DNA of 64,000 nucleotides from Candidatus Poribacteria bacterium. GTDB taxonomy: Bacteria > Poribacteria > WGA-4E > WGA-3G. The notes beneath the pieces were generated by a model. It saw only the letters and a list, made by a program, of their open reading frames with translations, had not been told where the DNA came from and searched no databases. Below, piece after piece: positions 11,587-50,691 of this stretch. Position 1 is the stretch's first letter. Every line of letters begins with the position of its first letter. The position numbers and the translations under genes are program-made. The stretch spans positions 40,046 to 104,045 of the forward strand of contig JAJDWA010000019.1 of assembly GCA_022825825.1 (NCBI GenBank). The letters are read 5' to 3'.

Positions 11587-11610
11587 TTCGGTTAGGAAAC
11601 CGCACCTACC
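11587..11610. repeat. REP-like unit (family 1)
   Basis: ttcggttaggaaaccgcacctacc (reverse orientation). Confidence 0.7.
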
Positions 11611-11684
11611 AGGCCTGAGGGAACAAAATCGATCGAAAAAATGGAAAACTATAGTGAACTTTAGAATTAACAGGACATTCTGGG

Positions 11685-11752
11685 TTGTAGGAGGGAACTC
11701 CGATTCCCGACTATCAGTGAGTTTCGTCGCGATTCGGAGATCGCTCCTACAA
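11685..11752. repeat. REP/BIME-like inverted pair (family 2)
   Basis: ttgtaggagGGGAActccgaTTCCCgac at 11685-11711, and the inverted gtcgcgattcggagatcgctcctacaa at 11726-11752. The second unit is identical over 27/27 nt to the unit at 32293-32319. Confidence 0.75.
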
Positions 11753-11824
11753 AAAATGTGCATCTTTAATTTCAAAGTCTACTATAAATAGCCCTATGAT
11801 GGAAAAAGTAAAGAGGTTTAAATA

Positions 11825-12829
11825 ATGAAAACAACTGTATTTCGGAATCTGCTAAAGTTTCTTTTCGTGTTAGGTCTTATCTGTAACTTTGTTTCTACAA
11901 CATCAGCACAGAATTATTATCCCGCTACTATAGGTAATGAATGGGTTTTAGAGAGCACCGATGGCAAGGAAAGACGCACTTATTCACTTGAGAACCCTGA
12001 AGACATTGCAGATCAAGAATTTGTTCTTTTGAAAATTGAAACCGAGAATCTTAGCACTAATAAGGTTATTGACACAGACGAGTACTTTTTGACAACTGAC
12101 GATGAAGGAATCAAACTCCATAAAACCGTCCTTGAGCAAGCCCCCTATGGTGCTGTAAAAGCTGATTTTCCAACACCTGTTACTTTTTTTCCTAAAAAAT
12201 TAGTGCAAGGAGACAAGTGGAAAATAGTTGCAGATGCGGAACTTCTCGGAATACCTATAAAAAGCACCACCGATTTAGAAATAGTTGGATTTGAGGACGT
12301 TGTTACACCAGCAGGAACATTTAAGAATTGCGCTAAAATTGAGTTAGTATTGAAAACTTCTGCTGCGGGTGGCGCTATAAATATTGATCCAACAACATCT
12401 TATCAGTGGTTAGCACCTGATATCGGACCTGTCAAATTTGAGGGTAATGAGGGGGTTGTCTATGAGATAATTAGCTTCAAAATATCCGCCCCTCCTGTTA
12501 GTCCTGCACAGAATCCGCCCTTATGGCAATTGCCATCTCTTGAATTTCAAGTTACTGGTTCGCGGCTGGGTGGAATACTCAATGCCAAGATATTGGAAAA
12601 TGTTGAAGATTATGTGTCGGAAGTGCACAATTTAGGAATAGTTACCGTAACTGGAGGAATTGTTCCGCCTGGGGATGGTACTGGTTTGGCCACAAACTTG
12701 GAAAGGAAACAAGATCTTTGGGTTGCTGGAATCTTTGGCGATGCACCTATCATCGGCACGATAACGCTTTTTGCTGAAAATGATAAAGGTAGGACTACAG
12801 TAACTATTAAAGTAACTATTATTAGATAA
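11825..12829 (+). CDS. secreted hypothetical protein, paralog 1 of a three-member family (shared ~190-aa N-terminal module)
   Basis: A signal peptide is followed by AQNYYPATIGNEWVLES...TPAGTFKNCAKIEL...YQWLAPDIGPVKFE. These blocks are shared with 13228..14889 and 15049..15849. Confidence 0.75.
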   Translation: MKTTVFRNLLKFLFVLGLICNFVSTTSAQNYYPATIGNEWVLESTDGKERRTYSLENPEDIADQEFVLLKIETENLSTNKVIDTDEYFLTTDDEGIKLHKTVLEQAPYGAVKADFPTPVTFFPKKLVQGDKWKIVADAELLGIPIKSTTDLEIVGFEDVVTPAGTFKNCAKIELVLKTSAAGGAINIDPTTSYQWLAPDIGPVKFEGNEGVVYEIISFKISAPPVSPAQNPPLWQLPSLEFQVTGSRLGGILNAKILENVEDYVSEVHNLGIVTVTGGIVPPGDGTGLATNLERKQDLWVAGIFGDAPIIGTITLFAENDKGRTTVTIKVTIIR

Positions 12830-33721: not shown

Positions 33722-35809
33722 ATGGAAAACACTGACTTTGAACTGATTAAACGCACGTTATCTGGTGACCAGGACGCTTTTACCGCCCTTGTAGAGAAAT
33801 ATCAAAAACGGGTGCACGCGCTCGCCTGGCGAAAAACCGGGGATTTCCACGTCGCTGAAGAGATAACACAGGATACCTTCCTGAGAGCTTACAGAAAACT
33901 CGGCACCTTGAAAAATCCCGATCTATTTGCGGGATGGCTCTATGTTATCGCAAATCGTTTGTGCAATACTTGGTTCGAAAAGAAAGCACCTGATATGCAA
34001 TCGTTGGAAACTGTGCCAGCAATAGAACTCGAGGAACACGTTTATTCCGAATATACTGCCGAACAACGTGAAGAACGGGCATCAGAAAAACGGGTTGACC
34101 TTGTCAAGCGTCTCCTTCAAAAATTACCGGAAAGCGAACGAATAGTGGTAACACTCCATTACCTTGCAGGAAGTTCAGTTAAAGAGATTAGCGAATTTTT
34201 GGGCGTATCGTTGAACACGGTGAAAAGCCGTCTCTATCGCGCCCGTCAACGTTTACAGAAGGAGGATCACATGGTACGTGAAACTTTGGGAAGTTTCCAA
34301 CCCTCAGCGAACTTAACCGAGAATATCATCAGAACCCTTAAAGAAACTGGAACACAGATTGACCCTGTTGTGCCTTCAGGAAGTAAACCAATTGTGCCGT
34401 GGGTAATTGCCACTTCAACCCTTGTCTTGGTAGTACTCATGCTCGGACTCGGTGCACAGCACCTTGCACGTTTTCAGCAACCCTACAGCCTTGACGCAAC
34501 ATCCGAGATGGCAGTAGACATTGTTGACGCAGCTGTCCTGATGAACCTTCCATCCGATCCTAATGCCCAGAATCAAATCGGTAACGTTGACGCTCCCGAA
34601 AAAAGCGAGGGGACAAGTCAGCATTCTGATGCAAAGTTATCTTCCCCTGTTACTGGTCGCGTTGTTGATGAGGCAGGGAATATTGTATCTGGCATCCAAA
34701 TAGCAACCATACCTGTTGAAGATGGTGATGGTGCTTGGTTTCCTACCCAGAGAGATGAAAATGGTGAACCTATAGATATGTCTCAATATCAAGCGGAAAC
34801 TGACTCGGATGGGCGTTTCACCATTACCGATGCTATCACAGGACCCGTGTTATTAACTTTATTGCCGTATCATAAGCCAAAACCGGATATCCGCCTGTTA
34901 AAGGTTGAAATTGGGGGATTGTTTTTCTATCCAAGTGGATCCCTTGGAGTCCTAAAGGATGGAATTGTGTTTAGCACAACACCGGATGAGAACATTGAAA
35001 ACGTCAAAGTTACCGTTCTGCATTCGCCAAAAATCCGGGGCACAGTAAACCAGATGGACGGAACACCACTTACTAACAAGACCGTTGAACTGCACATCCA
35101 GGAGCGGAGTTTAAATCAAAGCTCTCGTATAGAAACTTCTGTGAGTACAGATGAAAATGGCTACTTTGAACTATATCTCCATAAAGATTTTTTGATACGT
35201 AACACAACAGATGTGCATAGAGATTATTTGATACGTAACACAGATGTGGAAGGTCCAACATTTTACATCATAAATGTGGTATATGTGCGACTGAGGGCGA
35301 GGTCAATTCTGATAAAAAATAACGCACAAAACCGGGAATTTGTCTTTAACTTGAAAATTTTACCAGACATTTCTGCCAGATCATCTTTTTCTTCAACATT
35401 GGACGCTATCGGGGTATGGGTCGTCAATCCGGAAAATGGACACGCCTACAAAAAAATCGGTTGCAAAAATCCCAATGATGCTATCGCTCAAGCTGGCAAA
35501 GAAGATGCTTATCTTGTCACAATTAACGATCAAACTGAACAGAATTGGCTGGAAAAGGTTTTCGGAGGTTCGGATGCCTTTATCGGACTCAACGATATTG
35601 CCGAGGAAGGTCAGTGGCAATGGCAGAGTGGTGAAACCGTCGTATATACCAATTGGGCAAAAGAAGCACTTGAGGATAATAACAGTAAACATGAGGATTA
35701 CGTTATTCTCAGCTATGGTAAATGGAAAGATATCGGTCCAAGAAGTCGAAATTGGTTCAAAACTCGAACGGCAATCCTTGAAAAAGTACAGACGTCTGTG
35801 AAGAAATAA
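33722..35809 (+). CDS. ECF sigma-70 factor fused to a TM helix, carboxypeptidase-regulatory-like beta domains and a C-terminal C-type lectin domain
   Basis: Sigma region 2 (aa 20-85, EEITQDTFLRAY) and region 4 (LPESERIVVTLHYLAGSSVKEISEFLGVSLNTVKSRLYRARQRL) are present. A TM helix lies at aa ~224-246. VTGRVVDEAGN and IRGTVNQMDGTPL are CarboxypepD_reg-like starts. The C-type lectin domain is WVVNPENGHAY...YLVTINDQTEQNWL...IGLND...GQWQWQSGE...YTNW. Confidence 0.8.
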   Translation: MENTDFELIKRTLSGDQDAFTALVEKYQKRVHALAWRKTGDFHVAEEITQDTFLRAYRKLGTLKNPDLFAGWLYVIANRLCNTWFEKKAPDMQSLETVPAIELEEHVYSEYTAEQREERASEKRVDLVKRLLQKLPESERIVVTLHYLAGSSVKEISEFLGVSLNTVKSRLYRARQRLQKEDHMVRETLGSFQPSANLTENIIRTLKETGTQIDPVVPSGSKPIVPWVIATSTLVLVVLMLGLGAQHLARFQQPYSLDATSEMAVDIVDAAVLMNLPSDPNAQNQIGNVDAPEKSEGTSQHSDAKLSSPVTGRVVDEAGNIVSGIQIATIPVEDGDGAWFPTQRDENGEPIDMSQYQAETDSDGRFTITDAITGPVLLTLLPYHKPKPDIRLLKVEIGGLFFYPSGSLGVLKDGIVFSTTPDENIENVKVTVLHSPKIRGTVNQMDGTPLTNKTVELHIQERSLNQSSRIETSVSTDENGYFELYLHKDFLIRNTTDVHRDYLIRNTDVEGPTFYIINVVYVRLRARSILIKNNAQNREFVFNLKILPDISARSSFSSTLDAIGVWVVNPENGHAYKKIGCKNPNDAIAQAGKEDAYLVTINDQTEQNWLEKVFGGSDAFIGLNDIAEEGQWQWQSGETVVYTNWAKEALEDNNSKHEDYVILSYGKWKDIGPRSRNWFKTRTAILEKVQTSVKK

Positions 35810-35836
35810 GTCTTATGCTTCACCGAAGGAGAAAAT

Positions 35837-37225
35837 ATGAAACGTTTAACATGGAACATGTGGCTTTTTATACTACTAATAACGGTAATCGCGCTTTTCA
35901 TCGGATTTACTGCACACAGCATTGCCCAGAAACAGACATCAACATTATCTGGGCGCGTTGTTGACGTTAAAGGGAATCCGGTCATTGAATTACCAGTCTT
36001 TGTTCGTGCTGCTGAGAGTTTTCGAATAGGCCCATTTTTTTTTCCGAGTGATTACTTTGATGCACGACACACCCGCACAGCCTTTGATGGGAGCTTTTCC
36101 ATCACGGATATACCTTCAGGCTCTATATATTTCGGTTCACTTTCTAAAAATATAAAAGCATTGATTTCGGACGATTTAGAAGCGAAAATTAAAAAAGCTC
36201 TTGAGAAGAGAGATGTAGCTGCGCTCCGCGCAAGTGGGATTCATGAATTAGAAAGTGAAGACTTTGAGCCTGACGTTAAAGTTTTATCCGTCAATATTCA
36301 AGGGATAACCTTCTATCCTCGTAGTGACTTTGATAAAATTGTATTTGGTGTCAAACCCGGAACACATACTGAAAACGTTCTGATTACAGTAAAACCGCGT
36401 ATGCGGATTCGGGGACGCGTTATATTTAGAGATGGCACACCACTTGCTAATGCGCGCTTACGTGTTTCTATTAGATACCACTATAAAGAAGGAGACCGTA
36501 GCGGATCCACAGGTGAAAATCCAAGAACAGATGCTGATGGTTACTTTATTTTCTATCTGGAAGAGAAAAACGAAGCAGCATTTTATACATTTTCTGTGAA
36601 ATATATGGGATTAATTGCGAACGCTGATCCTGTACTCCCTGATCCTGTACTCCTTAAACCAGGAGAACGTCTTGAAGGTTTAACATTTACATTTCACAGT
36701 GATCCGATTGCTCCTAAACCACCTCGAAAGACAGAAACAATCGCCAAGAAACCTGACCCGCCACCTGCGCAAGAACACCTGCCAAGGCGAAAACCTGAAG
36801 AGGTATGGATCGTAAATCCCACAAACGGGCATGCTTACAAGCGAGTTCATTGCAAAACTCGCGATGATGCTATTGCGCAAGCCACTAAAGAGAAAGCACA
36901 TCTCGTCACGATTAACAATGCGAAAGAACAAGCATGGTTAGGTGCGGTTTTCGGGCATGAATTTTATTGGATAGGACTCAGCCATGTTGAAAAAGAGGGT
37001 GAATGGCAGTGGCACAACGGCGAACCTCTCACATACCAAAACTGGTTGTCTAATGATTACTTTTCTGAGTCCCTTAATGCCAATGAAAGAGACTACGCTG
37101 TTATGACTCTCGTTGATGGTAAATGGTATGCCGTAAGTCCTAAGAGTGCAATCGTTCAGATGACCGAGATGGCAATCATTGAAAAGGCAGACGTGAAGAT
37201 AAAACAGCCTGCCAAAAAGAAGTGA
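35837..37225 (+). CDS. membrane-anchored protein with carboxypeptidase-regulatory-like domains and C-type lectin domain (sigma-less paralog of the upstream gene)
   Basis: An N-terminal TM/signal anchor is followed by LSGRVVDVKGNP and IRGRVIFRDGTPL. The C-type lectin domain is WIVNPTNGHAY...HLVTINNAKEQAWL...IGLSH...GEWQWHNGE...YQNW. RBS gaaggag, 27 nt after the previous stop. Confidence 0.8.
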   Translation: MKRLTWNMWLFILLITVIALFIGFTAHSIAQKQTSTLSGRVVDVKGNPVIELPVFVRAAESFRIGPFFFPSDYFDARHTRTAFDGSFSITDIPSGSIYFGSLSKNIKALISDDLEAKIKKALEKRDVAALRASGIHELESEDFEPDVKVLSVNIQGITFYPRSDFDKIVFGVKPGTHTENVLITVKPRMRIRGRVIFRDGTPLANARLRVSIRYHYKEGDRSGSTGENPRTDADGYFIFYLEEKNEAAFYTFSVKYMGLIANADPVLPDPVLLKPGERLEGLTFTFHSDPIAPKPPRKTETIAKKPDPPPAQEHLPRRKPEEVWIVNPTNGHAYKRVHCKTRDDAIAQATKEKAHLVTINNAKEQAWLGAVFGHEFYWIGLSHVEKEGEWQWHNGEPLTYQNWLSNDYFSESLNANERDYAVMTLVDGKWYAVSPKSAIVQMTEMAIIEKADVKIKQPAKKK

Positions 37226-37317: not shown

Positions 37318-37350
37318 CTAATTCGCATGCCACACGCGCATGCGAATTAG
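37318..37350 (+). terminator. 13-bp perfect hairpin (possible terminator or REP-like element)
   Basis: ctaattcgcatgc-cacacgc-gcatgcgaattag lies 93 nt after the stop at 37225. No T tract follows. Confidence 0.35.
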
Positions 37351-38203: not shown

Positions 38204-38341
38204 ACGATTCACTATGAGTAGTTTAAGGCATACCAATATTTTTACGCTATTAGTAGTTTTGGGATTTGAAAAAAGTTGAAAAATCTCTCTAAACCCTTGT
38301 ATTTATTGGCTTTTTCTTGATTAAAAAGTGAGGAAAAGAGA

Positions 38342-40690
38342 ATGAATAAACAACAAAAAGGTCCAAGAAGACATCATTGGAGATCACAATGGTATTTAGA
38401 TGGATTTTCTATACCGGATAATCCAGAGCATTGCCATGCACTTAATGTTGTATCAGGTCAAGCAATATGTAATGCTCATATAAAAAATCTGGCTGTTGAA
38501 AAGGATTTTTACAGATTTTTAGATGATTTTTCGGGTATAGAACCTCAAGTATCACAATTGGATGGTATCGTGAGCTCCATATTCTCTGAAATTGTTTCAG
38601 AGAATAAAATGACATTCAGAAACCAAGCTGAATACGAATACAAAACAGAAATGATGTTGCGTTTTATTGCACACATGATGGCTTTTGATCCTGCAGTAAG
38701 AGATGGCATAATTCATGCAGCTAAAATTATAGCACCTGAAGATATTACTGATAAGGACGATGTAGAGTCTATTCCAATGCATATAGTCTTTTACTTTGAG
38801 TATTTAGGGATTATTAGAAATATGGGGAGCAACATTGGATTCAAAATATTTACTGCAGGCGATGATAATTTTTTTATTTGCCCAGATGTCATTAATTTTA
38901 CAGTAACTTACGATAACGAGTTGCACTTATGTTTCCCCTTACATAAAAACCTATGCTTTTACGGCTGTACTTCAAAAGAAGTTTTAGATACTATTAATCC
39001 ATCTGTACCACAAATCAACACAATGCTCCTATTACATAGTAGACAATTTGTATATTTCCCCAGTTGGGATTTAGAAATAGATAATGGGATCAGTGAAATT
39101 CCGATTAAAGATTTAATAAATAAGGGAATAGATGAAATGATAGAAGTATGGCTACAAAAAAATCCTACTATCATTAATCCCTCCAGTCGTTGTCCAATCA
39201 ACATTAACCTAATCTTTAACATAACTGAAAAACACATACCTGATGACGCAAAAAAAGAAGCATCAGACTACATAGAAAAAACAATAAGCAATATTAAATC
39301 TGACATATACGCAATGTGCCTTGTACATGATGAAAATTACGATGGACGTAGCCCATTAGATTCAGACAAGTTCATAGAGATCACACGCGAAGTGTCCGAA
39401 CTTGCAGACCTAAATATCAAACATTTTTGTTCGAAGGACATGACAACTGTATTCTTTAGAATGCATGAGTCTAATGACGGCTCAAGTATGACCTTGCATA
39501 AAGTAAGACGAGAGGATATTAAAACAGAATCTGCCTTAAATTCACCAGTTATATGTAAGATTATGCCGTTCAATCAATGGCTAAATGCTGTTACAGACAG
39601 GATTTATGACAATGAAGGAGTCCGTATTGCCACAGAAATGGCTGAATCTGTAAAATGCCCGATAGATGCACAAGAAGCACATCTCTTTTTGTCAGGGTTT
39701 GCATCCTATACACAGTTCGAATTAAATAATATCCTCGACTTAGCGAGGCAGGGGAAAGCAACACCTGACATGAATATCCCATATTGTATATTGTTTCTAC
39801 CCGAATTCAAAGAAGGCAATATCATGGAAAATTGTAGTATGTTAGATATTGCTAACAAGGTGACTTCTCTTATGAATGCACAGTGGATAGATACTATTAC
39901 GGATTCTATTAGTTTAAATGAGATATTCCAATCTGATGAATTACTTATACCACATTCTGATAACAATTTATTACTTTTTTCATCTTGGGATAAAAAAATA
40001 GAGAATCTCTGTATTTCTAAAACACCTAAGTCGGGAGCAACATTTTCTATCTGGTTACATATTTTTAATTTGTGCCTTAGCACACCGAAATTTTTAGTAT
40101 TTGTTGCAATGAAAGAATATTCTACACTTTTAAAGACAATCTTAGACGATCTGGAACAAGTTATCCTCGGATATAAACTTAGCAATTCAATGCCTATTAT
40201 ATCGCTTATAGGCAAACCATCACGTCCAGAAGGGATAGCATTTCCAAACGGTTCAGAAATAAAATTTCTTGGATTAAGGAGTAAATATGGAGTAAGCAGT
40301 AAAAAAACAGCAGAAAAAATAGAAAAAGAACAGCCTCAGCTATTCTGGCTTAGTGATGATTCCAAGTATAACTATTTTGATTTTGATATGTGGAATCCAA
40401 TTCATAGAATCTTGCTATCACAAGACAAACAATGCCAGATAATATTTGAAACATATCCTAAATCGCCTAAGTATTGGATTTACAAATTGTTTCACTCACA
40501 CGAACCAGGAATTCTTGATTTGCATGAAGGTAAAGATATTGCAATAAGCGATACTATAGAGAAATGCGGTTCAATGATGTGGTTAGTTTTTAAGTTATCT
40601 GATAACCCAGTCATGGTTCATGAGCATAAAAAAAGAAAAGACGATGCGATAAAACTGCTTAAGCATATACAAATTGACAAATCACGTTAA
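38342..40690 (+). CDS. hypothetical 782-aa protein: DUF4238-like N-terminal domain plus ~500-aa uncharacterised C-terminal region
   Basis: The N-terminus RRHHWRSQWYLDGFS, IKNLAVEKDFYRF, FIAHMMAFDPAVRD and FKIFTAGDDNFFICPD follow the DUF4238 pattern (HHYvPqfYLr.F ... n.a.e.dfY ... F.tsD.P) as I remember it. The rest has no motif I recognise. The gene is strongly AT-rich. Confidence 0.7.
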   Translation: MNKQQKGPRRHHWRSQWYLDGFSIPDNPEHCHALNVVSGQAICNAHIKNLAVEKDFYRFLDDFSGIEPQVSQLDGIVSSIFSEIVSENKMTFRNQAEYEYKTEMMLRFIAHMMAFDPAVRDGIIHAAKIIAPEDITDKDDVESIPMHIVFYFEYLGIIRNMGSNIGFKIFTAGDDNFFICPDVINFTVTYDNELHLCFPLHKNLCFYGCTSKEVLDTINPSVPQINTMLLLHSRQFVYFPSWDLEIDNGISEIPIKDLINKGIDEMIEVWLQKNPTIINPSSRCPININLIFNITEKHIPDDAKKEASDYIEKTISNIKSDIYAMCLVHDENYDGRSPLDSDKFIEITREVSELADLNIKHFCSKDMTTVFFRMHESNDGSSMTLHKVRREDIKTESALNSPVICKIMPFNQWLNAVTDRIYDNEGVRIATEMAESVKCPIDAQEAHLFLSGFASYTQFELNNILDLARQGKATPDMNIPYCILFLPEFKEGNIMENCSMLDIANKVTSLMNAQWIDTITDSISLNEIFQSDELLIPHSDNNLLLFSSWDKKIENLCISKTPKSGATFSIWLHIFNLCLSTPKFLVFVAMKEYSTLLKTILDDLEQVILGYKLSNSMPIISLIGKPSRPEGIAFPNGSEIKFLGLRSKYGVSSKKTAEKIEKEQPQLFWLSDDSKYNYFDFDMWNPIHRILLSQDKQCQIIFETYPKSPKYWIYKLFHSHEPGILDLHEGKDIAISDTIEKCGSMMWLVFKLSDNPVMVHEHKKRKDDAIKLLKHIQIDKSR

Positions 40691-40708
40691 AAATAAGAGG
40701 ATATTATT

Positions 40709-41050
40709 ATGACCATAGTGTTCAGGCATTTAGATTTTCCTGATAAAATATGTAGATTTGAACTTAATAATAGTAAATGTGTAGATACCGCAAGATTAAT
40801 TTATGCTGAAGAAATTACTGTTGTATATGGTATAGTATTGTGGGAACACCCTAAATACTATAGGCGAGGTATTATAGATAAGCGTGGGGAATACGGACAT
40901 ATAGTAATAGCACGTTGCCAAACTGTTAATGCTCTTACTGACAAAGCTTTGAAACCACTCCTTAATGAAATCAGAAAGGCGTTAAGAAACGGAGTGCTTG
41001 AACTTGATCTTACGGACAGAAAAACTGAATTGGATTTAAGCGATGTGTGA
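40709..41050 (+). CDS. hypothetical 113-aa protein
   Basis: The ORF starts 18 nt after the previous stop with RBS aagagga. It is AT-rich like its upstream neighbour. I recognise no family. Confidence 0.55.
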   Translation: MTIVFRHLDFPDKICRFELNNSKCVDTARLIYAEEITVVYGIVLWEHPKYYRRGIIDKRGEYGHIVIARCQTVNALTDKALKPLLNEIRKALRNGVLELDLTDRKTELDLSDV

Positions 41051-41142
41051 CTAATTCCGCTTTAAAATCCTGAATTTTATTGTGAAACTCAATTTAACCA
41101 GTCTCAAATCTACTAATTGTGTATTTTTAATGGAAACTTTGC

Positions 41143-42579
41143 ATGACACAAAACTTCCCAGATAATACCCTTTATGAAATGGACAATTTAGATGTGCTGC
41201 GCGGCATGAACAGTCAAACGGTTGACCTCATCGCCACTGATCCACCATTCAACACGAAACGAAATCGGAGCGCAACAGCAGGACATTACGTTGATAACTG
41301 GAAATGGGGAGATACCGGTATACTTCCTGACCAATGGAAATGGAACGAAGTTCACCCGAAATGGCTTGAGGAGATCAAAGACAACCACACTGAACTTTAC
41401 CATGCCATTGACGCTGCCAAACATTGTCAAGGCGAGGACACTGCCGCATTCCTCTGCTTCCTCAGTGTTAGACTCATTGAAATGCATCGTGTCTTGAAAG
41501 AGACAGGTAGTATCTATTTGCACTGCGATCCAACTGCAAGTCATTACATCAAAATGTGTATGGACGCTATCTTTGGGAAAAAGAACTTTCGCAATGAGAT
41601 TGTGTGGCATTACCAAACTGGCGGTGTCAGTAAGAGGTGGTTTGGGCGCAAACATGATGTGATACATTTCTACACCAAAACAGAAAAATACTTTATTGAT
41701 TTGACACGGGTAAAAGACAGTAGAAGCGCGGAAGTACTTCGCCGTATAGAGAGTGGAAACGAAAATGCTACCCGTGCTAAAGATTTGGAAAGACTGCCGT
41801 TTGATGTTTGGAACATTCAAGCATTAAACGCAATGTCCAACGAACGTACAGGTTCTCCCGACCAAAAACCGCTTGCTCTTTACGAGCGCATTATCAAAGC
41901 CAGTAGCAACGAAGGAGACGTTGTATTAGACCCTTTCTGTGGGTGTGCCACAACGATCATTGCTGCCGACAAACACAAACGTCGTTGGATAGGCATTGAT
42001 AGACGAAAAGACGCGCGTTACCACATTATTACCCGTTTGATGGGAATTGATCGAAAAGAGCGGGAACGTCTTGAGAAAGTTGTGAAAGATGGTAGTGATC
42101 CGGGGTGGCTTGATAGACAAACACAAAAATACGAAATACACTACCAAACCGAACCCCCGACACGCACCGATGAAGCCGCGCAAACTTCGGCAGCGTTAGC
42201 ACACGTCTATACGACCCGATCCGAATCTCTGCACACGCATGCCGAGATGCACCAAATCCTTGTCAATCAGTTTGGACTCAAATGTTGGGGATGTAACTTT
42301 GTACCACCAGACAAAAGGTATTTACACCTTGACCACATTATCCCTAAAAGTGATGGCGGCACAAATGATATAAATAACCGTGCACTACTCTGCCAACCGT
42401 GCAATAGTAAAAAATCAAATACCATGAGTCTTAACGCACTTCGTAGACAAAACAAAAAGGAGGGCTACACACAATCTAACCCAGAGATAGACTTGCAAAA
42501 TGCACTTGCATGGACAAGAAACTATTTAATACAAACTATACGAGAAACACCGTACCAATTTAAGCTTGATAATTCCTAA
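41143..42579 (+). CDS. beta-class N4/N6 DNA methyltransferase fused to a C-terminal HNH nuclease domain
   Basis: Motif IV DPPF (DLIATDPPFN, aa 28-37) precedes motif I (VLDPFCGCATTIIAA, IGID), which is the beta-class order. The C-terminus CWGC...HLDHIIPKSDGGTNDINNRALLCQPCNSKKSN (nt ~42270-42420) is an HNH with a CxxC...CxxC zinc site. Confidence 0.85.
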   Translation: MTQNFPDNTLYEMDNLDVLRGMNSQTVDLIATDPPFNTKRNRSATAGHYVDNWKWGDTGILPDQWKWNEVHPKWLEEIKDNHTELYHAIDAAKHCQGEDTAAFLCFLSVRLIEMHRVLKETGSIYLHCDPTASHYIKMCMDAIFGKKNFRNEIVWHYQTGGVSKRWFGRKHDVIHFYTKTEKYFIDLTRVKDSRSAEVLRRIESGNENATRAKDLERLPFDVWNIQALNAMSNERTGSPDQKPLALYERIIKASSNEGDVVLDPFCGCATTIIAADKHKRRWIGIDRRKDARYHIITRLMGIDRKERERLEKVVKDGSDPGWLDRQTQKYEIHYQTEPPTRTDEAAQTSAALAHVYTTRSESLHTHAEMHQILVNQFGLKCWGCNFVPPDKRYLHLDHIIPKSDGGTNDINNRALLCQPCNSKKSNTMSLNALRRQNKKEGYTQSNPEIDLQNALAWTRNYLIQTIRETPYQFKLDNS

Positions 42580-42605
42580 GCCATAAACTAATCCTTAATT
42601 TAGAT

Positions 42606-42626
42606 GGCGCGGCACGGAACCGCGCC
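42606..42626. repeat. GC-rich hairpin between convergent genes (terminator or REP-like)
   Basis: GGCGCGG-cacggaa-CCGCGCC. Confidence 0.45.
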
Positions 42627-42644
42627 TGTCGTGGAGTTTACGAT

Positions 42645-46575: not shown

Positions 46576-47907
46576 TTAATTATCTTGATCTAAATGATCT
46601 GCTTTTAGCGTCTGCACATAATTTTCAGTGATCTCCCTTGAAGGGTGTGCAACATTTTGATGGGGTTCGGGAAAATCAGTGAGCAGCTTTTCGTATGCTT
46701 CTATTGCATGCTCCATATCCTCAATTTCTTGATAGATTTTTCCAACTTTGTATTGCGCTTGTAGTCGGGAGTCGTAATTATGTGTCGGATTGTCTGCAAA
46801 ATTCTGATACACTTCAATCGCGCGAGCGGTATCCTTGTTATCTTCAGCAATCTGACCGATGTAAAATTTCGCAGTTGTAGCGTTCGCGTTATCTGGGTAG
46901 TTTTCTATTGCGGCCTCAAGACGAGCGATAGCTTCATCGTAATCTTTAAGCATGTGGTATGCCCATCCGATATAGAATTGCGCGTCTTGTCCGGACTGGG
47001 TGTTCGGATAGAGATCAATAGTTCGTTGGTACCCAGCGACCGCTTCCTGATATATCGCTTCCGCTTCCTGATATATCGTTTCCGCTACCTTAGGTTTGCC
47101 TTCCACTTCCTTGAATTTCGCTTCCGCTTCTTTACGCCTCCCTTCACTGAGGTAGGTTTGGGCAATACTAAAGCTTGAAGGTGGTGCAAACTGCGGGTCA
47201 CCAGCATCTGTTACGTTTTTGAACTCAACTCTTGCATTTTCATAGTCTTGTTGTGCAAAGTTAATCGCCCCAATATGATATAAAATCTTAAAAATGATTG
47301 GACTATTGCCAAGTTCCATTTTTAAGTTTTCAAGTTGGCTGAGGGCAGTATTTAGATCCTCTTTGCCTTTGTAACACATTGCGATGTTAAAATGTGCTTC
47401 TTCTTCCAAGGCATTGCCGGGATATATCGTGATTAATTGATTGAATAGCGCGATTGCTCTGTCATAGTAGGCATTGATAGATTCAAGTGTGCCGGTCTTT
47501 TTCAGATCTTCTGCAATCCGAAAGGTTGTGAACGCGATAGCGTACATTGAATCATCAGCGAATTCACTGTCCGGGTAATCGCGTATTAATCGGCGATGCA
47601 GAGCAAACCCCTCCTCATCGGTACGAGGAAGTGATGCAAGTTGATAGAGTGCATCGTCCGCCCATCGACTGTCAGGATAATTGTCAAAAACTGCCCGGCA
47701 CGCTGAACGCACTTCACGCAATCGATTTTTGTCAGGATCATCATACGTTACTGGCGGATTGTTCATTTCGCGGACTTTAACCCAAGCTTTATCGGCATTT
47801 TCATAATACTGTGTATAATTATTAAAAGGACTTGTGATCCGTCCAATCCAAAACCCCACGGCGAGCGCAATAATAACGCAAATTTCTATGATTATGAACT
47901 TTTTCAT
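46576..47907 (-). CDS. TPR-repeat protein with N-terminal membrane anchor
   Basis: An N-terminal TM helix is followed by many TPR/BamD-YbgF-like units (ADDALYQLA, YPDSEFADDSMY, YPNTQSGQDAQFYIG). Confidence 0.8.
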   Translation of the reverse strand: MKKFIIIEICVIIALAVGFWIGRITSPFNNYTQYYENADKAWVKVREMNNPPVTYDDPDKNRLREVRSACRAVFDNYPDSRWADDALYQLASLPRTDEEGFALHRRLIRDYPDSEFADDSMYAIAFTTFRIAEDLKKTGTLESINAYYDRAIALFNQLITIYPGNALEEEAHFNIAMCYKGKEDLNTALSQLENLKMELGNSPIIFKILYHIGAINFAQQDYENARVEFKNVTDAGDPQFAPPSSFSIAQTYLSEGRRKEAEAKFKEVEGKPKVAETIYQEAEAIYQEAVAGYQRTIDLYPNTQSGQDAQFYIGWAYHMLKDYDEAIARLEAAIENYPDNANATTAKFYIGQIAEDNKDTARAIEVYQNFADNPTHNYDSRLQAQYKVGKIYQEIEDMEHAIEAYEKLLTDFPEPHQNVAHPSREITENYVQTLKADHLDQDN

Positions 47908-48292
47908 CTATTTTTTCCCTTCGGACTAATAAATACGTGAAATTAATCAGAATTATAACTACGTTTTGGCAAGTTGTCAAGTATGTAAATTGAGAAGCAC
48001 CTGATTATTACAGTTTTAACTTCAGAATAAGCAATTTATATGCCAAATACAGTGTCAATAATATACCGAAATATCAACCTAAAAATCAGTTTGCTGCACA
48101 AAAATGTGCAATTTCTACTTGAAGATGCACAATATGGGGCATTTCCAAACCTAAATTACTATATCTTCCAGAATCCCAACTACCCTGAAAATTTTAAATG
48201 ACAATTAAACCGATTTATGGTATACTTGATACTATTGAAGTACAAAGTTTACAATATAAAATTTTCCGAACAACAGAATTAAACACATCCTT

Positions 48293-49477
48293 ATGAATCT
48301 TTCATCTATTTTATTTAGCACTGTCATTGCATCAACGGGTTTTTCTACATCTACCGCTATCATAGAGAAACCAGTCGCTCCCCCACCGACTATCCGAGAA
48401 AACTTTGAGTTACCATCTTTTTACCAACAGTGGATTGATGTAGATGGATTTCCCGTTGTCGCATCGGAGAAGGTTAATCCGCATGCTATGCAGGAAGCAG
48501 CTTGGCTTATCCAGCAAATGATTGGGCACCGTCCAGATTTACTACAAGCACTTGCAGAAAACAATGTCCGTTTCTCCATTATGGCATACAATGAGATGAC
48601 GACAGCGATCCCTGAACATAACGATCTCAAACCCGATTTTTATTGGGATAGACGCGCTCGTGGTCTGGGGGCAACATCTTCGCGTCCATCTGTCAGTTGT
48701 GGTGAAGAGAACCTTCTTAACTATCCGGGGGATCCTTACGGGACTGAAAATATCCTTGTTCACGAGTTCGCTCATGCAATCCATCAAATGGGACTCAGCA
48801 CCGTTGCCCCGGATTTTGACAAACGGCTTAAGGCTTTGTATGAAATAGCGATGGAAAAAGGGTTGTGGAAAGGCACTTACGCTTCCACCAACAAGGAGGA
48901 GTATTGGGCTGAAGGCACGCAATCTTGGTTTAACACGAACCGGGAGAACGATGCACAGCATAACCATGTCAGTAAACGGGGAATATTGAAAGATTATGAT
49001 CCTGAGTTGGCAACGCTGCTCATGGAAATCTATGGTGATGAAGATTGGCGTTATACAAATGCTATAACCCGGACGCATTTACCGCATCTGGATGGATTCA
49101 ATCCTGATAATTCACCAAAGTTTGAATGGCCCGCTGAACTTGCTGCGAGCTATGAACAGTTGTTTGATCCGAACTGCGATGAGGGTGACAAATGGGTGAA
49201 TTTGAACCGTTACGAACCGAGTCAACTTTCAACGTTAAAATCGAATGACGGTGAGCATACTGCTGTCCTTTTCGTGAACAAAACCGAAACTGATATTACT
49301 TACTATTGGATAGATGCTGAAGGTAATGAGAGTTATCGCGGGCGTGCTGCTGCCGATGCATTCAGTATTCATCACACGCATGCTGGTCATATCTGGCTTG
49401 TTAAAGATCACAATGGGGATAACATCGCCATTTTTCAAGCAAAAGAGATGACAGGACGAGCCTTAATTCAAGAATAA
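48293..49477 (+). CDS. putative secreted zinc metallopeptidase-like protein with C-terminal VHL-beta-like domain
   Basis: HEXXH in the context LVHEFAHAIHQ plus EEYWAEGTQSWF. The C-terminal segment TAVLFVNKTETDITYYWIDAEGNESY...HAGHIWLVKD resembles the von Hippel-Lindau beta-domain core (V-F-N ... W ... G ... Y ... GH-WL--D). Confidence 0.65.
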   Translation: MNLSSILFSTVIASTGFSTSTAIIEKPVAPPPTIRENFELPSFYQQWIDVDGFPVVASEKVNPHAMQEAAWLIQQMIGHRPDLLQALAENNVRFSIMAYNEMTTAIPEHNDLKPDFYWDRRARGLGATSSRPSVSCGEENLLNYPGDPYGTENILVHEFAHAIHQMGLSTVAPDFDKRLKALYEIAMEKGLWKGTYASTNKEEYWAEGTQSWFNTNRENDAQHNHVSKRGILKDYDPELATLLMEIYGDEDWRYTNAITRTHLPHLDGFNPDNSPKFEWPAELAASYEQLFDPNCDEGDKWVNLNRYEPSQLSTLKSNDGEHTAVLFVNKTETDITYYWIDAEGNESYRGRAAADAFSIHHTHAGHIWLVKDHNGDNIAIFQAKEMTGRALIQE

Positions 49478-49671
49478 TACAATTATCGGTAAACCTATTT
49501 GGTGTTATAGGTGTTAAATCTTACCAAATCAACTAAAATTTGGTATGTCGTATAATAACAAGTTTATTACAATGAACTAACTATTTCAATTATTGTATAG
49601 ATGAATCTTGGACAAAATGTATTCATCTTAACTATCAATTCAATTCAATTTAATTTTGAAAGGAAAAGAAA

Positions 49672-50691
49672 ATGAAAAAATTATGTTTTCGAATTTCAGT
49701 ATTGGTATTGGCATTTTTAATGGTTTCCCCTATACTCTCAGACAATCACGAGAGTAGTATCCTTGATAAAGTGAAAAAAAGGGGAAGGCTGATTTGTGGT
49801 GTTAATAAAGAATTACCGGGGTTTGGTTATCTCAGTCAGGATGGAAAATATAAAGGATTTGACGTAGATTTTGGTCGTGCAATTGCCGCTGCAGTTCTCG
49901 GGGATCCGGACAAAGTTGAGTTCCGTTCCTTAAAGGCAGCAGACAGATTTCCTGCTCTTCAGACAGGTGAAATAGATGTGTTAATTCGCAACACTACTAT
50001 GACGTTAACGCGTGACACAGCAAACGGTGCAGACTTCTGCCCGCCAAACTTTTATGATGGTCAAGGGTTTATGCTACGTAAAAAGCTGGGTATAACATCA
50101 CTGAAGGAGCTCGACGGTGCTACTATCGGTGTCACAGCTGGGAGTACCACAGAGTTAAATCTTGCAGACAAAATGCGAACATTGGGAATCAAAGTTGAGT
50201 CTATTGTTTTTGAGGAAACTGAAACGCTTTACCAAAGTTATGATCAAGGACGTTGTGATGCGGTGACAAGCGATAAGTCTCAACTTATTTCTCGCCGGGC
50301 ATCTTTGAAAAATCCGGATGAGCATATCATTCTTGATGTAACCATTTCCAAGGAACCTTTAGCACCTGTTACCGTTCATGGAGACAACAAGTGGAATGAT
50401 GTTGTGAGTTGGGTTGTTTATGCCACGTTCTTTGCAGAGGAACACAATATTACACAAGCTAAGGTGAAAAACCTTAAATCCGACAACCCAGAAATTAAGC
50501 GTTTTCTTGGAGATACTGGAAATATCGGTGAGTTACTTGGTTTGCCAAAAGATTGGGCGCGCCACGCCATTGGTGCAGTCGGTCACTATGGTGAAATCTT
50601 TGAACGCAACCTCACGCCTCTCGGTCTTCCGCGCGGTGTTAACAAACCTTGGACAGAAGGTGGGTTGCTTTACGCAATGCCGTTCCGTTAG
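49672..50691 (+). CDS. amino-acid ABC transporter substrate-binding protein (AapJ/BztA-like)
   Basis: A signal peptide and the family-3 SBP pattern (GFDVDFGRAIAAAV, IDVLIRNTTMT). Confidence 0.85.
   Translation: MKKLCFRISVLVLAFLMVSPILSDNHESSILDKVKKRGRLICGVNKELPGFGYLSQDGKYKGFDVDFGRAIAAAVLGDPDKVEFRSLKAADRFPALQTGEIDVLIRNTTMTLTRDTANGADFCPPNFYDGQGFMLRKKLGITSLKELDGATIGVTAGSTTELNLADKMRTLGIKVESIVFEETETLYQSYDQGRCDAVTSDKSQLISRRASLKNPDEHIILDVTISKEPLAPVTVHGDNKWNDVVSWVVYATFFAEEHNITQAKVKNLKSDNPEIKRFLGDTGNIGELLGLPKDWARHAIGAVGHYGEIFERNLTPLGLPRGVNKPWTEGGLLYAMPFR

What the first reader, a model, noticed from the sequence alone, without database searches (positions are those of the whole stretch)
38220..42640. 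AT-rich three-gene island: DUF4238-like 782-aa protein, 113-aa ORF and methyltransferase-HNH fusion (candidate undescribed defence/R-M-like system)
Three same-strand genes (38342..40690, 40709..41050, 41143..42579) are separated by only 18 and 92 nt. They sit between a housekeeping-looking membrane Zn peptidase and a VOC protein on the opposite strand.

The last gene combines a beta-class amino-methyltransferase (DPPF before the FCG motif) with a C-terminal HNH nuclease. That puts self-marking and DNA cleavage in one polypeptide. No separate restriction enzyme or specificity subunit is present.

The first gene has a DUF4238-like N-terminus and about 500 aa with no P-loop, nuclease or protease motif that I can see.

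I do not recognise this gene trio as any validated defence system. Compact co-directional architecture, a nuclease plus a modification enzyme, and foreign composition are the usual hallmarks of an immunity island.
Basis: partly seen in the sequence, partly recalled or inferred. Interest (0 to 1): 0.85.

Follow-up and report, generated by a model that had tools for sequence, protein, structure and literature searches.

The report
Mobile cassette beside a methylase-nuclease gene
The three genes are not one fixed system: two ride on a small jumping DNA cassette, one of them a likely anti-phage protein carrying an apparently disabled copy of a phage DNA-packaging motor domain, and the cassette landed just upstream of a separately mobile methylase-nuclease gene.

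Summary
The three ORFs are real and lie in a 4,396-bp strain-variable islet (38205-42600); a near-identical contig lacks it. They are not a conserved trio.

Genes 1+2 are the cargo of a 2,877-bp element (38245-41121) with ~28-nt terminal inverted repeats and an 8-bp target duplication (TATTTTTA). A second copy elsewhere has its own duplication (TAATTCTT). No transposase is recognisable. The element inserted 13 nt upstream of gene 3.

Gene 1 has three parts:
- a divergent DUF4238 domain, from a family with validated anti-phage members;
- a ~240-aa region with no relatives outside the family;
- a large-terminase ATPase domain (hhalign 99.9%) with no nuclease half and with the Walker-A Lys, catalytic Glu and other motif residues replaced, yet under purifying selection.

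In other genomes gene 1 is split into two genes.

Gene 3 belongs to a large, multi-copy Poribacteria family of beta-class methyltransferase-HNH fusions that moves independently. A different lineage of that family (33-39% identity) sits directly upstream of gene 1 in four other contexts, so a loose functional partnership is possible.

Verdict: a mosaic of mobile, probably defensive modules. It is a new variant of known kinds, of moderate interest.

The parts
38205..42600 (.). Strain-variable islet of 4,396 bp. In the empty-site contig L014 it is replaced by 7 nt (TTTGTGG). No target duplication or inverted repeat at its outer ends.
   Evidence: L014 aligns to window 44384-42601 and 38204-37161 at 98%. 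Junction sequences. Outer ends score only 5.6 and 2.3 bits against the TIR matrix.
38237..38244 (.). Left copy of the 8-bp target-site duplication TATTTTTA.
   Evidence: 8/8 identity with the right copy at the same offsets as in L003. Every other candidate TIR pairing scores 5/8 or less.
38245..41121 (+). 2,877-bp TIR-bounded element carrying genes 1 and 2, with no recognisable transposase (mobile-insertion-cassette-like).
   Evidence: The same element is in L003 at 9902-12786 (2,885 bp, 89% nt identity) at a different site, with its own duplication TAATTCTT.
38245..38273 (+). Left terminal inverted repeat, CGCTATTAGTAGTTTTGGGATTTGAAAAA.
   Evidence: Inverted repeat I1. The motif occurs twice in the 64-kb window against 0.03 expected by chance. 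Weight-matrix scan.
38290..38309 (+). Conserved leader block TAAACCCTTGTATTTATTGG just inside the left TIR. It is also present in L003, and upstream of the MTase-HNH gene in L004. Possibly the element's promoter (inferred).
   Evidence: Sequence alignments. The consensus promoter scan did not call it.
38342..40690 (+). Gene 1 (782 aa): an in-frame fusion of an N-gene (aa 1-515) and a C-gene (aa 516-782), which are separate, translationally coupled genes in L002/L003.
   Evidence: the split form has stop + AAAGGAG + ATG. dN/dS 0.26-0.44.
38354..39181 (+). DUF4238 domain (aa ~5-280). It keeps the conserved positions H12, Y18, L19, F22, E67, P117, D182, P199 and N226.
   Evidence: Pfam E 5.5e-10. 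End-to-end alignment with stand-alone DUF4238 proteins. AF2 pLDDT is mostly 84-94 here. The only fold match is an uncharacterised phage Smp131 protein, E 1.1e-5.
39182..39901 (+). Family-specific middle region (aa ~281-520). No relatives outside the family and not confidently modelled.
39923..40624 (+). Terminase large-subunit ATPase-like domain (aa ~528-761), with no nuclease domain and with the catalytic motifs replaced.
   Evidence: Hits to Terminase_3 proteins down to E 1e-17. The free-standing C-gene in L003 hits Terminase_3 at E 5.3e-8. hhalign probability 99.94%, E 5.3e-37. Substitutions.
40019..40042 (+). Degenerate Walker A, K560-T-P-K-S-G-A566-T567. It aligns to G-x-R-x-x-G-K-T of the terminases, so the P-loop Lys is replaced by Ala.
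   Evidence: Ala or Thr at this position in 24 of 24 family members.
40709..41050 (+). Gene 2 (113 aa), of unknown function. Found elsewhere only in L002/L003 (94% aa identity). A real gene (pN/pS 0.19).
   Evidence: No hit in Pfam, PADLOC or NCBIfam, one weak PHROG match (E 0.021), and nothing in PDB or viral contigs.
41093..41121 (-). Right terminal inverted repeat. On the + strand it reads TTTAACCAGTCTCAAATCTACTAATTGTG.
41122..41129 (.). Right copy of the target-site duplication TATTTTTA, followed by 13 nt and then the ATG of gene 3.
   Evidence: DNA homology of gene 3 to its ortholog in L015 starts at 41130, immediately after this copy.
41143..42579 (+). Gene 3 (478 aa): beta-class N6/N4 DNA methyltransferase (aa 27-291) fused to an HNH nuclease (aa 381-426). 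It lies outside the element and belongs to a large multi-copy family.
   Evidence: (nearest solved structure M.RsrI, E 1.9e-22). pN/pS 0.08 against the 95% ortholog. Two copies confirmed on one 3.95-Mb chromosome.

Best explanation
The islet is a mosaic of two independently mobile modules. They have become one probable transcription unit by insertion.

(1) Shown: genes 1 and 2 are the cargo of a 2.9-kb element with ~28-nt imperfect terminal inverted repeats and an 8-bp target-site duplication. It has no recognisable transposase. It transposed into the leader of gene 3, 13 nt before that gene's ATG.

(2) Shown: gene 1 is a Poribacteria-restricted derivative of the DUF4238 family. It is joined to a family-specific middle region and to a phage large-terminase ATPase domain. 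That domain lacks the nuclease half, and the consensus Walker-A lysine, Walker-A arginine, a conserved arginine, the catalytic glutamate and the motif III asparagine are all replaced.

Inferred: gene 1 is an anti-phage protein. The apparently dead terminase module no longer packages DNA. Instead it serves as a binding module for the phage packaging machinery (small terminase, portal, or the phage's own large-terminase ring). It would act either as the infection sensor that switches on the DUF4238 part or as a dominant-negative poison of the motor. Gene 2 is a small accessory protein of unknown role.

(3) Shown: gene 3 belongs to a large, multi-copy family of beta-class methyltransferase-HNH fusions that moves as a gene-sized unit.

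Inferred: gene 3 acts as a self-contained restriction-modification-like module. The methyltransferase marks host DNA, probably as m6A given DPPF, and the HNH domain cuts unmarked DNA. Some family members may instead serve as the methylase partner of a separate nuclease gene.

The modules do not need each other, but their recurrent adjacency suggests they work well together.
For: Element:
- The TIR motif occurs exactly twice in the window, inverted, against 0.03 expected.
- There are perfect 8-bp flanking repeats in two independent insertions with different flanks (window TATTTTTA, L003 TAATTCTT).
- All other candidate TIR pairings give 5/8 or less.
- The shared DNA block with L002/L003 is 38233-41119.
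- TIR-like copies scoring 20 bits or more, with a matrix that did not include them, also lie near gene 1 in L001, L008 and L009. None above 14 bits occurs in the five gene-3-only loci or elsewhere in the window.

Islet: empty site L014.

Gene 1 architecture:
- Exhaustive profile search with Pfam confirmation of the hits.
- The free-standing C-gene hits Terminase_3 at E 5.3e-8.
- hhalign gives 99.94%.
- The two-gene form has its own SD and ATG.
- The catalytic positions are invariant or nearly so in 15 terminase relatives but replaced in 22-25 of about 25 family members.
- In HK97 terminase, Walker-A K60A and Walker-B E154A abolish ATPase activity and packaging (PMC9410871).
- dN/dS is 0.3-0.5 in the C-module, so it is maintained.

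Defence context:
- A DUF4238 protein protects E. coli against T7 (PMC9122126).
- A validated E. coli TIR system contains a DUF4238 domain (PMC11350192).
- CAP12/PDC-S35 TIR genes flank gene 1 in L006, L009 and L010, on either side.
- Packaging-targeting defence has a precedent in TERi (bioRxiv 10.1101/2025.02.27.640495).

Gene 3:
- All 120 listed homologs carry both domains.
- Two copies on one chromosome are confirmed by coordinates.
- Homology to L015 and L016 is confined to the ORF.
- Its relatives' neighbours include a REase_II-like gene and bSEFIR.
Against: - No phenotype, methylation or binding data exist. All functional steps are inferred.
- PADLOC's DUF4238 defence model does not report gene 1, although it hits bridging homologs.
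- The DUF4238 fold matches no solved structure, so its biochemistry is unknown.
- K560-x4-G565-x-T567 is invariant and resembles lambda-type deviant Walker A motifs (from memory). Residual nucleotide binding or hydrolysis therefore cannot be excluded.
- No autonomous partner element with the same TIRs was found, and I could not scan whole genomes for one.
- The longer MTase-HNH-carrying versions of the element have only one recognisable end and no matching duplication.
- The recurrent MTase-HNH adjacency may mean the modules are more tightly coupled than I propose.
Confidence: 0.55

Rival explanations
1. Two-part cooperative system. Gene 1 and an adjacent MTase-HNH work together. For example, the terminase-like module docks or regulates the HNH nuclease, echoing the HNH-terminase partnership of cos phages. 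Gene 2 is dispensable.
For: - Gene 1 is directly adjacent to an MTase-HNH gene in 5 of 9 distinct contexts.
- Two MTase-HNH lineages only 33-39% identical are involved, in two gene orders.
- The [MTase-HNH + gene 1] block moved as a unit between L004/L006/L010 and L007, with a left TIR upstream of the MTase-HNH in L007.
- L008 shares about 80 nt corresponding to the 3' end of the upstream MTase-HNH gene. This is read from alignment coordinates only.
- In the window, the element landed 13 nt from a solitary MTase-HNH gene. My rough estimate of the chance of that is a few in a thousand, assuming random insertion and about 10 such genes per genome.
- HNH genes sit beside terminase genes in many phages, and gp74 stimulates HK97 terminase cos cleavage (PMC3592412; PMC9410871).
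Against: - Intact gene 1, under purifying selection, occurs with no MTase-HNH within 8-10 kb in L001/L009 and L002/L003.
- Gene 3 relatives are mostly found without gene 1.
- The proposed HNH contact surface of HK97 terminase is in the nuclease domain, which gene 1 lacks.
- TIR-domain genes show the same either-side adjacency to gene 1. That looks like defence-island shuffling rather than a fixed operon.
Confidence: 0.22
2. Gene 1 (perhaps with gene 2) is the transposition machinery of the TIR element, a new kind of transposase or helper, and not a defence gene.
For: - The clean elements contain only genes 1 and 2 between TIRs with an 8-bp duplication.
- TIR copies were found only near gene 1 among all held sequence.
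- No known transposase domain is present, so something has to move the element.
- DUF4238 has invariant His, Glu, Asp and Asn positions of unknown role.
Against: - DUF4238 proteins elsewhere are single genes in prophage defence hotspots with a measured anti-phage effect.
- Gene 1 appears once per large contig, not multi-copy.
- Its ATPase-like module lacks the catalytic residues.
- The same TIR family bounds variants with other cargo: a 185-aa ORF in L004 and a TIR-domain gene in L006/L010.
- Transposase-less TIR cassettes mobilised in trans are a known class (PMC4337579).
Confidence: 0.12
3. A single integrated three-gene defence or R-M-like system.
For: - The genes are co-directional and tightly spaced, with no terminator called between them, so they are probably co-transcribed now.
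- All three are under purifying selection.
- The whole islet is present or absent as one block relative to L014.
Against: - The trio was found only on contigs identical to the window.
- The element boundary separates genes 1-2 from gene 3.
- Base composition differs (33-35% against 44% GC).
- Each gene recurs without the others.
Confidence: 0.07
4. A decaying remnant of a prophage packaging module (terminase plus HNH).
For: A terminase-homologous domain and an HNH nuclease lie within 1 kb of each other. This is the classical cos-phage arrangement (PMC3592412).
Against: - There is no portal, capsid, small terminase, integrase or tRNA nearby.
- No relatives were found in viral contigs or in 50,697 phage genomes.
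- The MTase-HNH fusion is absent from sequenced phages; no record covers 80% or more of the query.
- The terminase domain is fused to DUF4238, is conserved across more than 20 full-length homologs, and is under purifying selection.
Confidence: 0.03

Closest known systems
DUF4238 single-gene anti-phage system (P2-prophage hotspot; Rousset et al. 2022, PMC9122126; PADLOC model 'DUF4238-Pers')
   Same: The N-terminal ~280 aa of gene 1 are a complete DUF4238 domain. The conserved positions are kept. The only structural match is a 298-aa uncharacterised protein of Stenotrophomonas phage Smp131, which from memory is a P2-like phage. Gene 1 sits on a mobile element among defence-type neighbours.
   Different: Gene 1 is 782 aa (or a 515 + 271-aa gene pair), not about 300 aa. 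It carries a family-specific middle region and a terminase-derived module. The PADLOC defence model does not report it. Relatives were found only in Candidatus Poribacteria. It has no phenotype data.
Phage terminase large subunit, Terminase_3 family (TerL)
   Same: Clear homology of aa ~528-761 to the N-terminal ATPase domain (E down to 1e-17, hhalign 99.94%).
   Different: There is no C-terminal nuclease domain. The Walker-A Lys and Arg, a conserved Arg, the catalytic Glu and the motif III Asn are all replaced. It is fused to DUF4238. It has no packaging-gene neighbours and no phage context.
Mobile insertion cassettes: transposase-less TIR-bounded passenger-gene elements (e.g. PMC4337579)
   Same: Short imperfect TIRs, a target-site duplication, passenger genes and no transposase. 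At least two independent insertions are seen.
   Different: The cognate autonomous element and transposase family are unknown. The cargo is a candidate defence gene. Related copies are rearranged, with only one recognisable end.
Type II restriction-modification enzymes with beta-class N6/N4 methyltransferases (nearest solved structure M.RsrI), and single-polypeptide R-M enzymes
   Same: Gene 3 has a complete beta-class methyltransferase (DPPF then FCG; E 9.8e-45) and PADLOC MTase_II hits. It also has an intact HNH motif with two CxxC pairs. Modification and cleavage are in one chain.
   Different: I found no described example of a beta-class MTase fused to HNH. The window has no separate nuclease or specificity gene. 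The 95% ortholog in L015 has a REase_II-like gene 27 nt upstream, so the HNH may not be the primary restriction nuclease.
HNH endonuclease + terminase partnership of cos phages (HK97 gp74; PMC3592412, PMC9410871), and packaging-interference defences (TERi, bioRxiv 10.1101/2025.02.27.640495)
   Same: An HNH nuclease gene sits next to a terminase-homologous gene. The idea that defence can act at DNA packaging has experimental precedent.
   Different: Here the terminase part appears catalytically dead and nuclease-less. The HNH is fused to a methyltransferase. No phage packaging genes are present. TerI is a small protein, and I did not compare its sequence with these genes.

Membership tests
DUF4238 defence family (Rst_DUF4238 / PADLOC DUF4238-Pers) | Pfam PF14022 domain above the gathering score, spanning the whole domain | tested here: met
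   39.6 bits against a cut-off of 27. The profile search aligns aa 11-272 to residues 4-277 of a 318-aa DUF4238 protein. Conserved columns are kept.
DUF4238 defence family (Rst_DUF4238 / PADLOC DUF4238-Pers) | Recognised by the defence-system HMM (PDLC03000) | tested here: not met
   No PADLOC hit for gene 1 at E <= 0.1. The same model hits the bridging homologs P0187, P0199 and P0206 at 5.5e-10 to 1.2e-16.
DUF4238 defence family (Rst_DUF4238 / PADLOC DUF4238-Pers) | Stand-alone single protein of about 300 aa | tested here: not met
   782 aa, with about 500 extra residues, or a 515 + 271-aa gene pair.
DUF4238 defence family (Rst_DUF4238 / PADLOC DUF4238-Pers) | Protects against phage when expressed | not testable with these tools
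   Needs cloning and plaque assays.
Phage terminase large subunit (Terminase_3) | Homologous ASCE ATPase domain | tested here: met
   E 5.3e-8; E 1e-17; 99.94%.
Phage terminase large subunit (Terminase_3) | Canonical Walker A GK[ST], catalytic Glu after Walker B, and motif III | tested here: not met
   The changes are GK[ST] to GA(T), [NE]E to SD, TNP to (A/T)YP, and R to M.
Phage terminase large subunit (Terminase_3) | C-terminal RNase-H-like nuclease domain | tested here: not met
   Gene 1 ends where the aligned terminases start their nuclease domain.
Phage terminase large subunit (Terminase_3) | Lies in a packaging or morphogenesis module (small terminase, portal, capsid) | tested here: not met
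   The flanks are housekeeping genes. No tRNA. No relatives in viral contigs or phage genomes.
Transposable element of the mobile-insertion-cassette type | Terminal inverted repeats | tested here: met
   31-nt arms, 74% complementary. The motif occurs twice against 0.03 expected. It is conserved in L002/L003.
Transposable element of the mobile-insertion-cassette type | Target-site duplication that differs between insertions | tested here: met
   TATTTTTA in the window and TAATTCTT in L003, both 8/8. Control pairings give 5/8 or less.
Transposable element of the mobile-insertion-cassette type | A cognate autonomous element with the same TIRs and a transposase | not tested
The one viral-contig match was a chance hit.
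Transposable element of the mobile-insertion-cassette type | An empty target site for this element | tested here: inconclusive
   Gene 3 homology to L015 starts right after the duplication (41130). The sequence upstream in L015 is unrelated to the reconstructed window site.
Type II R-M / single-polypeptide R-M enzyme | Complete DNA methyltransferase with catalytic motif IV and AdoMet motif I | tested here: met
   N6_N4_Mtase E 9.8e-45, DPPF at aa 33, FCGC at aa 265. PADLOC MTase_II E 6.1e-56. M.RsrI E 1.9e-22.
Type II R-M / single-polypeptide R-M enzyme | Nuclease with an intact catalytic motif | tested here: met
   HNH E 2e-12, H395/H398, CWGC and CQPC zinc pairs.
Type II R-M / single-polypeptide R-M enzyme | Sequence-specific cleavage blocked by its own methylation | not testable with these tools
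   Needs a methylome analysis and cleavage assays.
BREX / DISARM / other multi-gene systems in PADLOC | Hits to the system's signature proteins | tested here: not met
   No PADLOC model matches genes 1 or 2. Gene 3 matches only generic MTase models.
   Only contigs identical to the window carry all three. All other loci carry subsets.

The most novel reading that the evidence does not exclude
Gene 1 is an exapted, catalytically dead phage terminase used as bait. The pseudo-ATPase module would co-assemble with, or capture, the invading phage's packaging proteins. It would thereby trigger or carry out defence through the DUF4238 part. It would do so in functional partnership with the neighbouring MTase-HNH nuclease, a captured version of the cos-phage HNH-terminase pair. 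The whole would be spread among sponge symbionts by a previously undescribed family of transposase-less TIR cassettes that shuttle defence genes.
Probability: 0.15. Interest if true: 0.8.

Novelty: new variant of a known kind. Interest (0 to 1): 0.55.

Why it matters
If the functional reading holds, it matters in three ways:
- **A handle on DUF4238.** This would be a defence protein built by fusing a DUF4238 module, whose mechanism is still unknown, to a disabled viral packaging ATPase. The fusion points to what DUF4238 systems may sense or target, namely DNA packaging. It would also be a clear case of a host capturing a core virion-assembly enzyme as a non-catalytic module.
- **A route for defence-gene spread.** The TIR cassette shows how defence genes could move between sites in sponge-symbiont genomes, which are known to be rich in defence genes (PMC5649159, PMC5099237).
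- **An uncharacterised enzyme family.** The abundant MTase-HNH fusions are potential one-chain restriction-modification enzymes of practical interest.

If it does not hold, the region is an ordinary strain-variable islet of accessory genes.

Tried and rejected
- **Full-length AF2 of gene 1.** With the shallow family alignment it gave mean pLDDT 37.7, which is unusable, so no fold search was run on it.
- **Sequence and profile searches of gene 1 against PDB.** Only noise.
- **Foldseek of the well-modelled DUF4238 domain.** Nothing meaningful against PDB (best E 0.034, TM <= 0.14). Against viral models it found only one uncharacterised phage protein. No biochemical mechanism could be derived.
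- **PHROGs, PADLOC and NCBIfam for genes 1 and 2.** Nothing useful.
- **Gene 1 against phage and plasmid genomes and viral contigs.** No match.
- **Gene 2.** No relatives in viral contigs, PDB or among the neighbours of other MTase-HNH genes, including a 113-aa ORF of the same length in L019.
- **The last homolog search, using a DUF4238 profile.** It returned mostly the same family because of the word-index prefilter.
- **Rfam and tRNA scans of the window.** Nothing.
- **Target duplications for the longer MTase-HNH-carrying elements.** None found.
- **TIRs at the outer ends of the 4.4-kb islet.** Not significant.
- **TIR pattern in viral contigs.** One chance hit in a 28%-GC contig.
- **Integron-cassette and prophage-remnant readings.** Considered and rejected. 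There is no conserved 3' recombination site, the repeats occur in both orientations, and there are no phage genes.
- **Motif regexes.** My simple patterns for FxGxG and HNH did not match the upstream-type MTase-HNH proteins. For those, domain content rests on precomputed Pfam for L004/L005 and on tblastn similarity for the others.

Full report
**1. The observation**

The three + strand ORFs exist exactly as stated: 38342..40690 (782 aa), 40709..41050 (113 aa) and 41143..42579 (478 aa), with spacers of 18 and 92 nt. They lie between a Zn_peptidase_2 gene and an opposite-strand glyoxalase/VOC gene.

Gene 3 carries N6_N4_Mtase (aa 27-291, E 9.8e-45) and HNH (aa 381-426, E 2e-12). DPPF is at aa 33, ahead of FCGC at aa 265, and the HNH histidines are at 395 and 398. 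Gene 1 has an N-terminal DUF4238 match.

Two details need correcting. Low GC (33-35%) covers only genes 1 and 2, while gene 3 is 44%, like its surroundings. And the C-terminal part of gene 1 is not featureless (section 4).

All three are real genes under purifying selection: dN/dS 0.26-0.44 for gene 1, pN/pS 0.19 for gene 2 and 0.08 for gene 3. No tRNA or Rfam family lies in the window.

**2. The islet is a presence/absence polymorphism**

A contig encoding an identical VOC protein (L014) has PhyH-VOC-Zn-peptidase directly adjacent. It aligns to window 44384-42601 and 38204-37161 at 98%. The islet is therefore 38205-42600 (4,396 bp), and L014 has 7 nt in its place.

The islet sits between the peptidase stop codon and a GC-rich hairpin. 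There is no duplication or inverted repeat at its outer ends. Two other contigs, L012 and L013, are identical to the window.

**3. Genes 1 and 2 ride on a transposon-like cassette, and gene 3 does not**

The only DNA the window shares with L002/L003 is 38233-41119, which is genes 1+2. That block is bracketed by an imperfect inverted repeat.

In both loci the repeat ends are flanked by a perfect, locus-specific 8-bp direct repeat. In the window, TATTTTTA lies at 38237-38244 and 41122-41129 around an element at 38245-41121 (2,877 bp). In L003, TAATTCTT flanks an element at 9902-12786.

Controls support this. The TIR motif occurs exactly twice in the 64-kb window, in inverted orientation, against 0.03 expected. 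In a scan of all candidate TIR pairs, only these two give 8/8 flank identity, and all others give 5/8 or less.

A weight matrix built from eight copies finds further copies near gene 1 in L001, L008 and L009, at 20-30 bits. It finds none above 14 bits in the five loci that hold only a gene 3 relative, or elsewhere in the window. One hit appears in shuffled sequence. The raw total of 21 hits includes the training copies and duplicate loci.

Nothing in the element resembles a transposase. The element resembles the transposase-less 'mobile insertion cassettes' described elsewhere (PMC4337579).

The right-hand duplication is followed by 13 nt and then the ATG of gene 3. Gene 3's homology to its 95% ortholog in L015 begins at 41130, immediately after the duplication. 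So the cassette inserted into the leader of a resident gene 3. No terminator is called between the genes, so the three are probably co-transcribed now.

**4. What gene 1 is**

The word-indexed homolog search found 51 proteins, all 71-100% identical, and the named ones are Candidatus Poribacteria. Each large contig appears once in that list.

An exhaustive profile search of 1.84 billion representative proteins resolved three parts:
- **aa 5-280** aligns end to end with stand-alone DUF4238 proteins, confirmed by Pfam. The conserved columns are retained: H12, Y18, L19, F22, E67, P117, D182, P199 and N226.
- **aa 280-520** has no relatives outside the family.
- **aa 528-761** matches the N-terminal ~230 residues of 470-560-aa Terminase_3 proteins, with E-values down to 1e-17.

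About half of the family is split at residue 515. In L002/L003 the N-gene ends ...AQW-TAA, and a 14-nt insert with AAAGGAG precedes the ATG of a 271-aa C-gene. That free-standing C-gene hits Terminase_3 at E 5.3e-8. L008 has the N-gene alone, and L004 has it followed by an unrelated 185-aa ORF. So the terminase-like part is a separable module.

A profile-profile comparison gives 99.94% probability (E 5.3e-37) over 207 columns. The module stops where the terminases begin their nuclease domain.

The positions that are invariant or nearly invariant in 15 terminase relatives are G42-K43, R39, R67, E140 and N180-P181. In gene 1 they read:
- Walker A: K-T-P-K-S-G-A-T, so the P-loop Lys is Ala and the Arg is Pro.
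- M-K-EYST, so the Arg is Met.
- W-L-S-D, so the catalytic Glu is Asp.
- T-Y-P, so the motif III Asn is Tyr.

Across the family these are fixed: Ala or Thr in 24/24, MK in 25/25, SD in 22/25, and AYP or TYP in 25/27. In HK97 terminase the equivalent K60A and E154A mutations abolish ATPase activity and packaging (PMC9410871).

I therefore read the module as a pseudo-ATPase retained for a structural or binding role. One caveat: the invariant K560-x4-G-x-T spacing resembles lambda-type deviant Walker A motifs (from memory), so residual nucleotide binding is possible.

**5. Structure**

A deeper DUF4238 alignment gave a confident model of aa ~5-280, with pLDDT mostly 84-94. It matches no solved structure (best E 0.034). 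It matches only one viral model, an uncharacterised 298-aa protein of Stenotrophomonas phage Smp131 (E 1.1e-5). This confirms family membership but gives no mechanism.

**6. Is gene 1 a defence gene?**

For:
- A single DUF4238 protein from the P2 prophage hotspot protects E. coli strongly against T7 (PMC9122126).
- A validated E. coli TIR system contains a DUF4238 domain (PMC11350192).
- In L006, L009 and L010 the neighbour of gene 1 is a CAP12/Pycsar-type TIR protein that matches PADLOC candidate PDC-S35 (E 1.6e-20). It lies on either side of gene 1.
- Gene 1 is AT-rich relative to every host genome and is mobile.

Against:
- PADLOC's DUF4238 model hits bridging homologs but does not report gene 1.
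- There is no experimental evidence.

**7. What gene 3 is**

All 120 listed homologs (52-95% identity) carry both domains. L018 and L019 are two copies on one 3.95-Mb chromosome, and a third hit shares that contig length. The nearest solved structure is M.RsrI.

Contexts differ widely:
- **L018:** solitary, among glycolysis genes.
- **L015:** preceded at 27 nt by a gene matching PADLOC REase_II (E 1.4e-10). That gene's Pfam Shedu/HSDR_N hits are all below the gathering cut-offs.
- **L017:** preceded at 27 nt by a 186-aa gene with no family hits, and followed by a bSEFIR gene (E 2.9e-54).
- **L019:** preceded by a 334-aa gene with no family hits that overlaps it by 4 nt.
- **L016:** inside an integrase-bearing element.

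DNA homology to the orthologs is confined to the ORF. No sequenced phage carries the fusion: of 100 matching records, none covers 80% or more of the query. I found no published description of a beta-class MTase-HNH fusion.

**8. How the modules relate**

A different MTase-HNH lineage (33-39% identical to gene 3) lies directly upstream of gene 1 in L004/L005, L006, L007 and L010/L011, with a 66-nt gap.
- L004, L006 and L010 are one chromosomal site.
- L007 shares only the [MTase-HNH + gene 1] block, in different flanks. It has a left TIR upstream of the MTase-HNH.
- L008 shares about 80 nt that correspond to the 3' end of that upstream gene. This is read from coordinates only.
- L001/L009 and L002/L003 have gene 1 without any MTase-HNH.

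So adjacency arose at least twice, but it is not obligatory. I rate a cooperative pair as the main rival (0.22) to the 'independent modules' reading. The HNH-terminase partnership of cos phages is the obvious analogy (PMC3592412, PMC9410871). However, the proposed HNH contact is in the terminase nuclease domain, which gene 1 lacks.

**9. Mechanism I commit to (confidence 0.55 overall)**

Shown: the mosaic structure, the transposon signature, the domain architecture and the loss of the catalytic consensus.

Inferred: gene 1 is an anti-phage protein whose pseudo-terminase module engages the phage packaging machinery, as sensor or as poison. Packaging-targeting defence has a precedent in TERi. 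Gene 3 is an R-M-like module.

**10. Novelty**

The parts belong to known kinds: the DUF4238 defence family, terminase ATPases, TIR cassettes and beta-class methyltransferases. The combinations are undescribed as far as I could find. These are DUF4238 plus an apparently dead terminase domain, a defence-carrying transposase-less cassette family in Poribacteria, and an abundant MTase-HNH fusion family. The finding is a new variant of known kinds, of moderate interest.

**11. Unexplained**

- Between loci with unrelated flanks, homology to gene 1 begins exactly 11 nt before the ATG and ends at the stop codon.
- The mechanism that inserted or deleted the whole 4.4-kb islet is unknown.
- Whether the TIR element is mobilised in cis or in trans could not be tested.

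Noticed in passing
window 33722-37225: Two adjacent C-type lectin proteins. The first (695 aa) combines ECF sigma-70 regions 2 and 4, a transmembrane stretch, CarboxypepD_reg and Lectin_C in one chain. The second (462 aa) has CarboxypepD_reg (faint) and Lectin_C. A sigma factor fused to a lectin is unusual.
   Followed up: no
window 37318-37350: A 33-nt stretch matches the empty-site contig in both orientations at 100%, so it is a perfect palindrome. It lies in the intergenic region upstream of the Zn-peptidase gene.
   Followed up: no
window 47750-48500 and 49250-50000: Two further GC dips (0.33-0.35 against about 0.44) near the ORFs at 48293..49477 and 49672..50691.
   Followed up: no
L015:3510-11489: The 95% ortholog of gene 3 sits in a run of R-M-like genes: HSDR_N, a C5 DNA methylase, an HATPase_c_3 protein, a REase_II-like 288-aa gene and a 662-aa ORF with no family hits.
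   Followed up: partly
L017:4413-4973 and L019:4000-5004: The unrelated genes immediately upstream of two other MTase-HNH copies both start with a hydrophobic stretch followed by a similar Y-V-R-L motif. They have no family hits.
   Followed up: no
L001:5208-5235 and 8138-8165: Two same-orientation TIR copies lie 4.8 and 1.9 kb upstream of gene 1, flanking ORFs that include a Hypoth_Ymh protein. No right end was found, so this may be a nested or rearranged element.
   Followed up: partly
protein P0051 (478 aa): A family member with permuted order: the terminase-like module is followed by the middle region. It could be a tandem copy or a misassembly.
   Followed up: no
L016:1-17437: An 85% homolog of gene 3 lies in an integrase-bearing element made almost entirely of ORFs with no Pfam hits, including 566- and 501-aa proteins.
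   Followed up: partly
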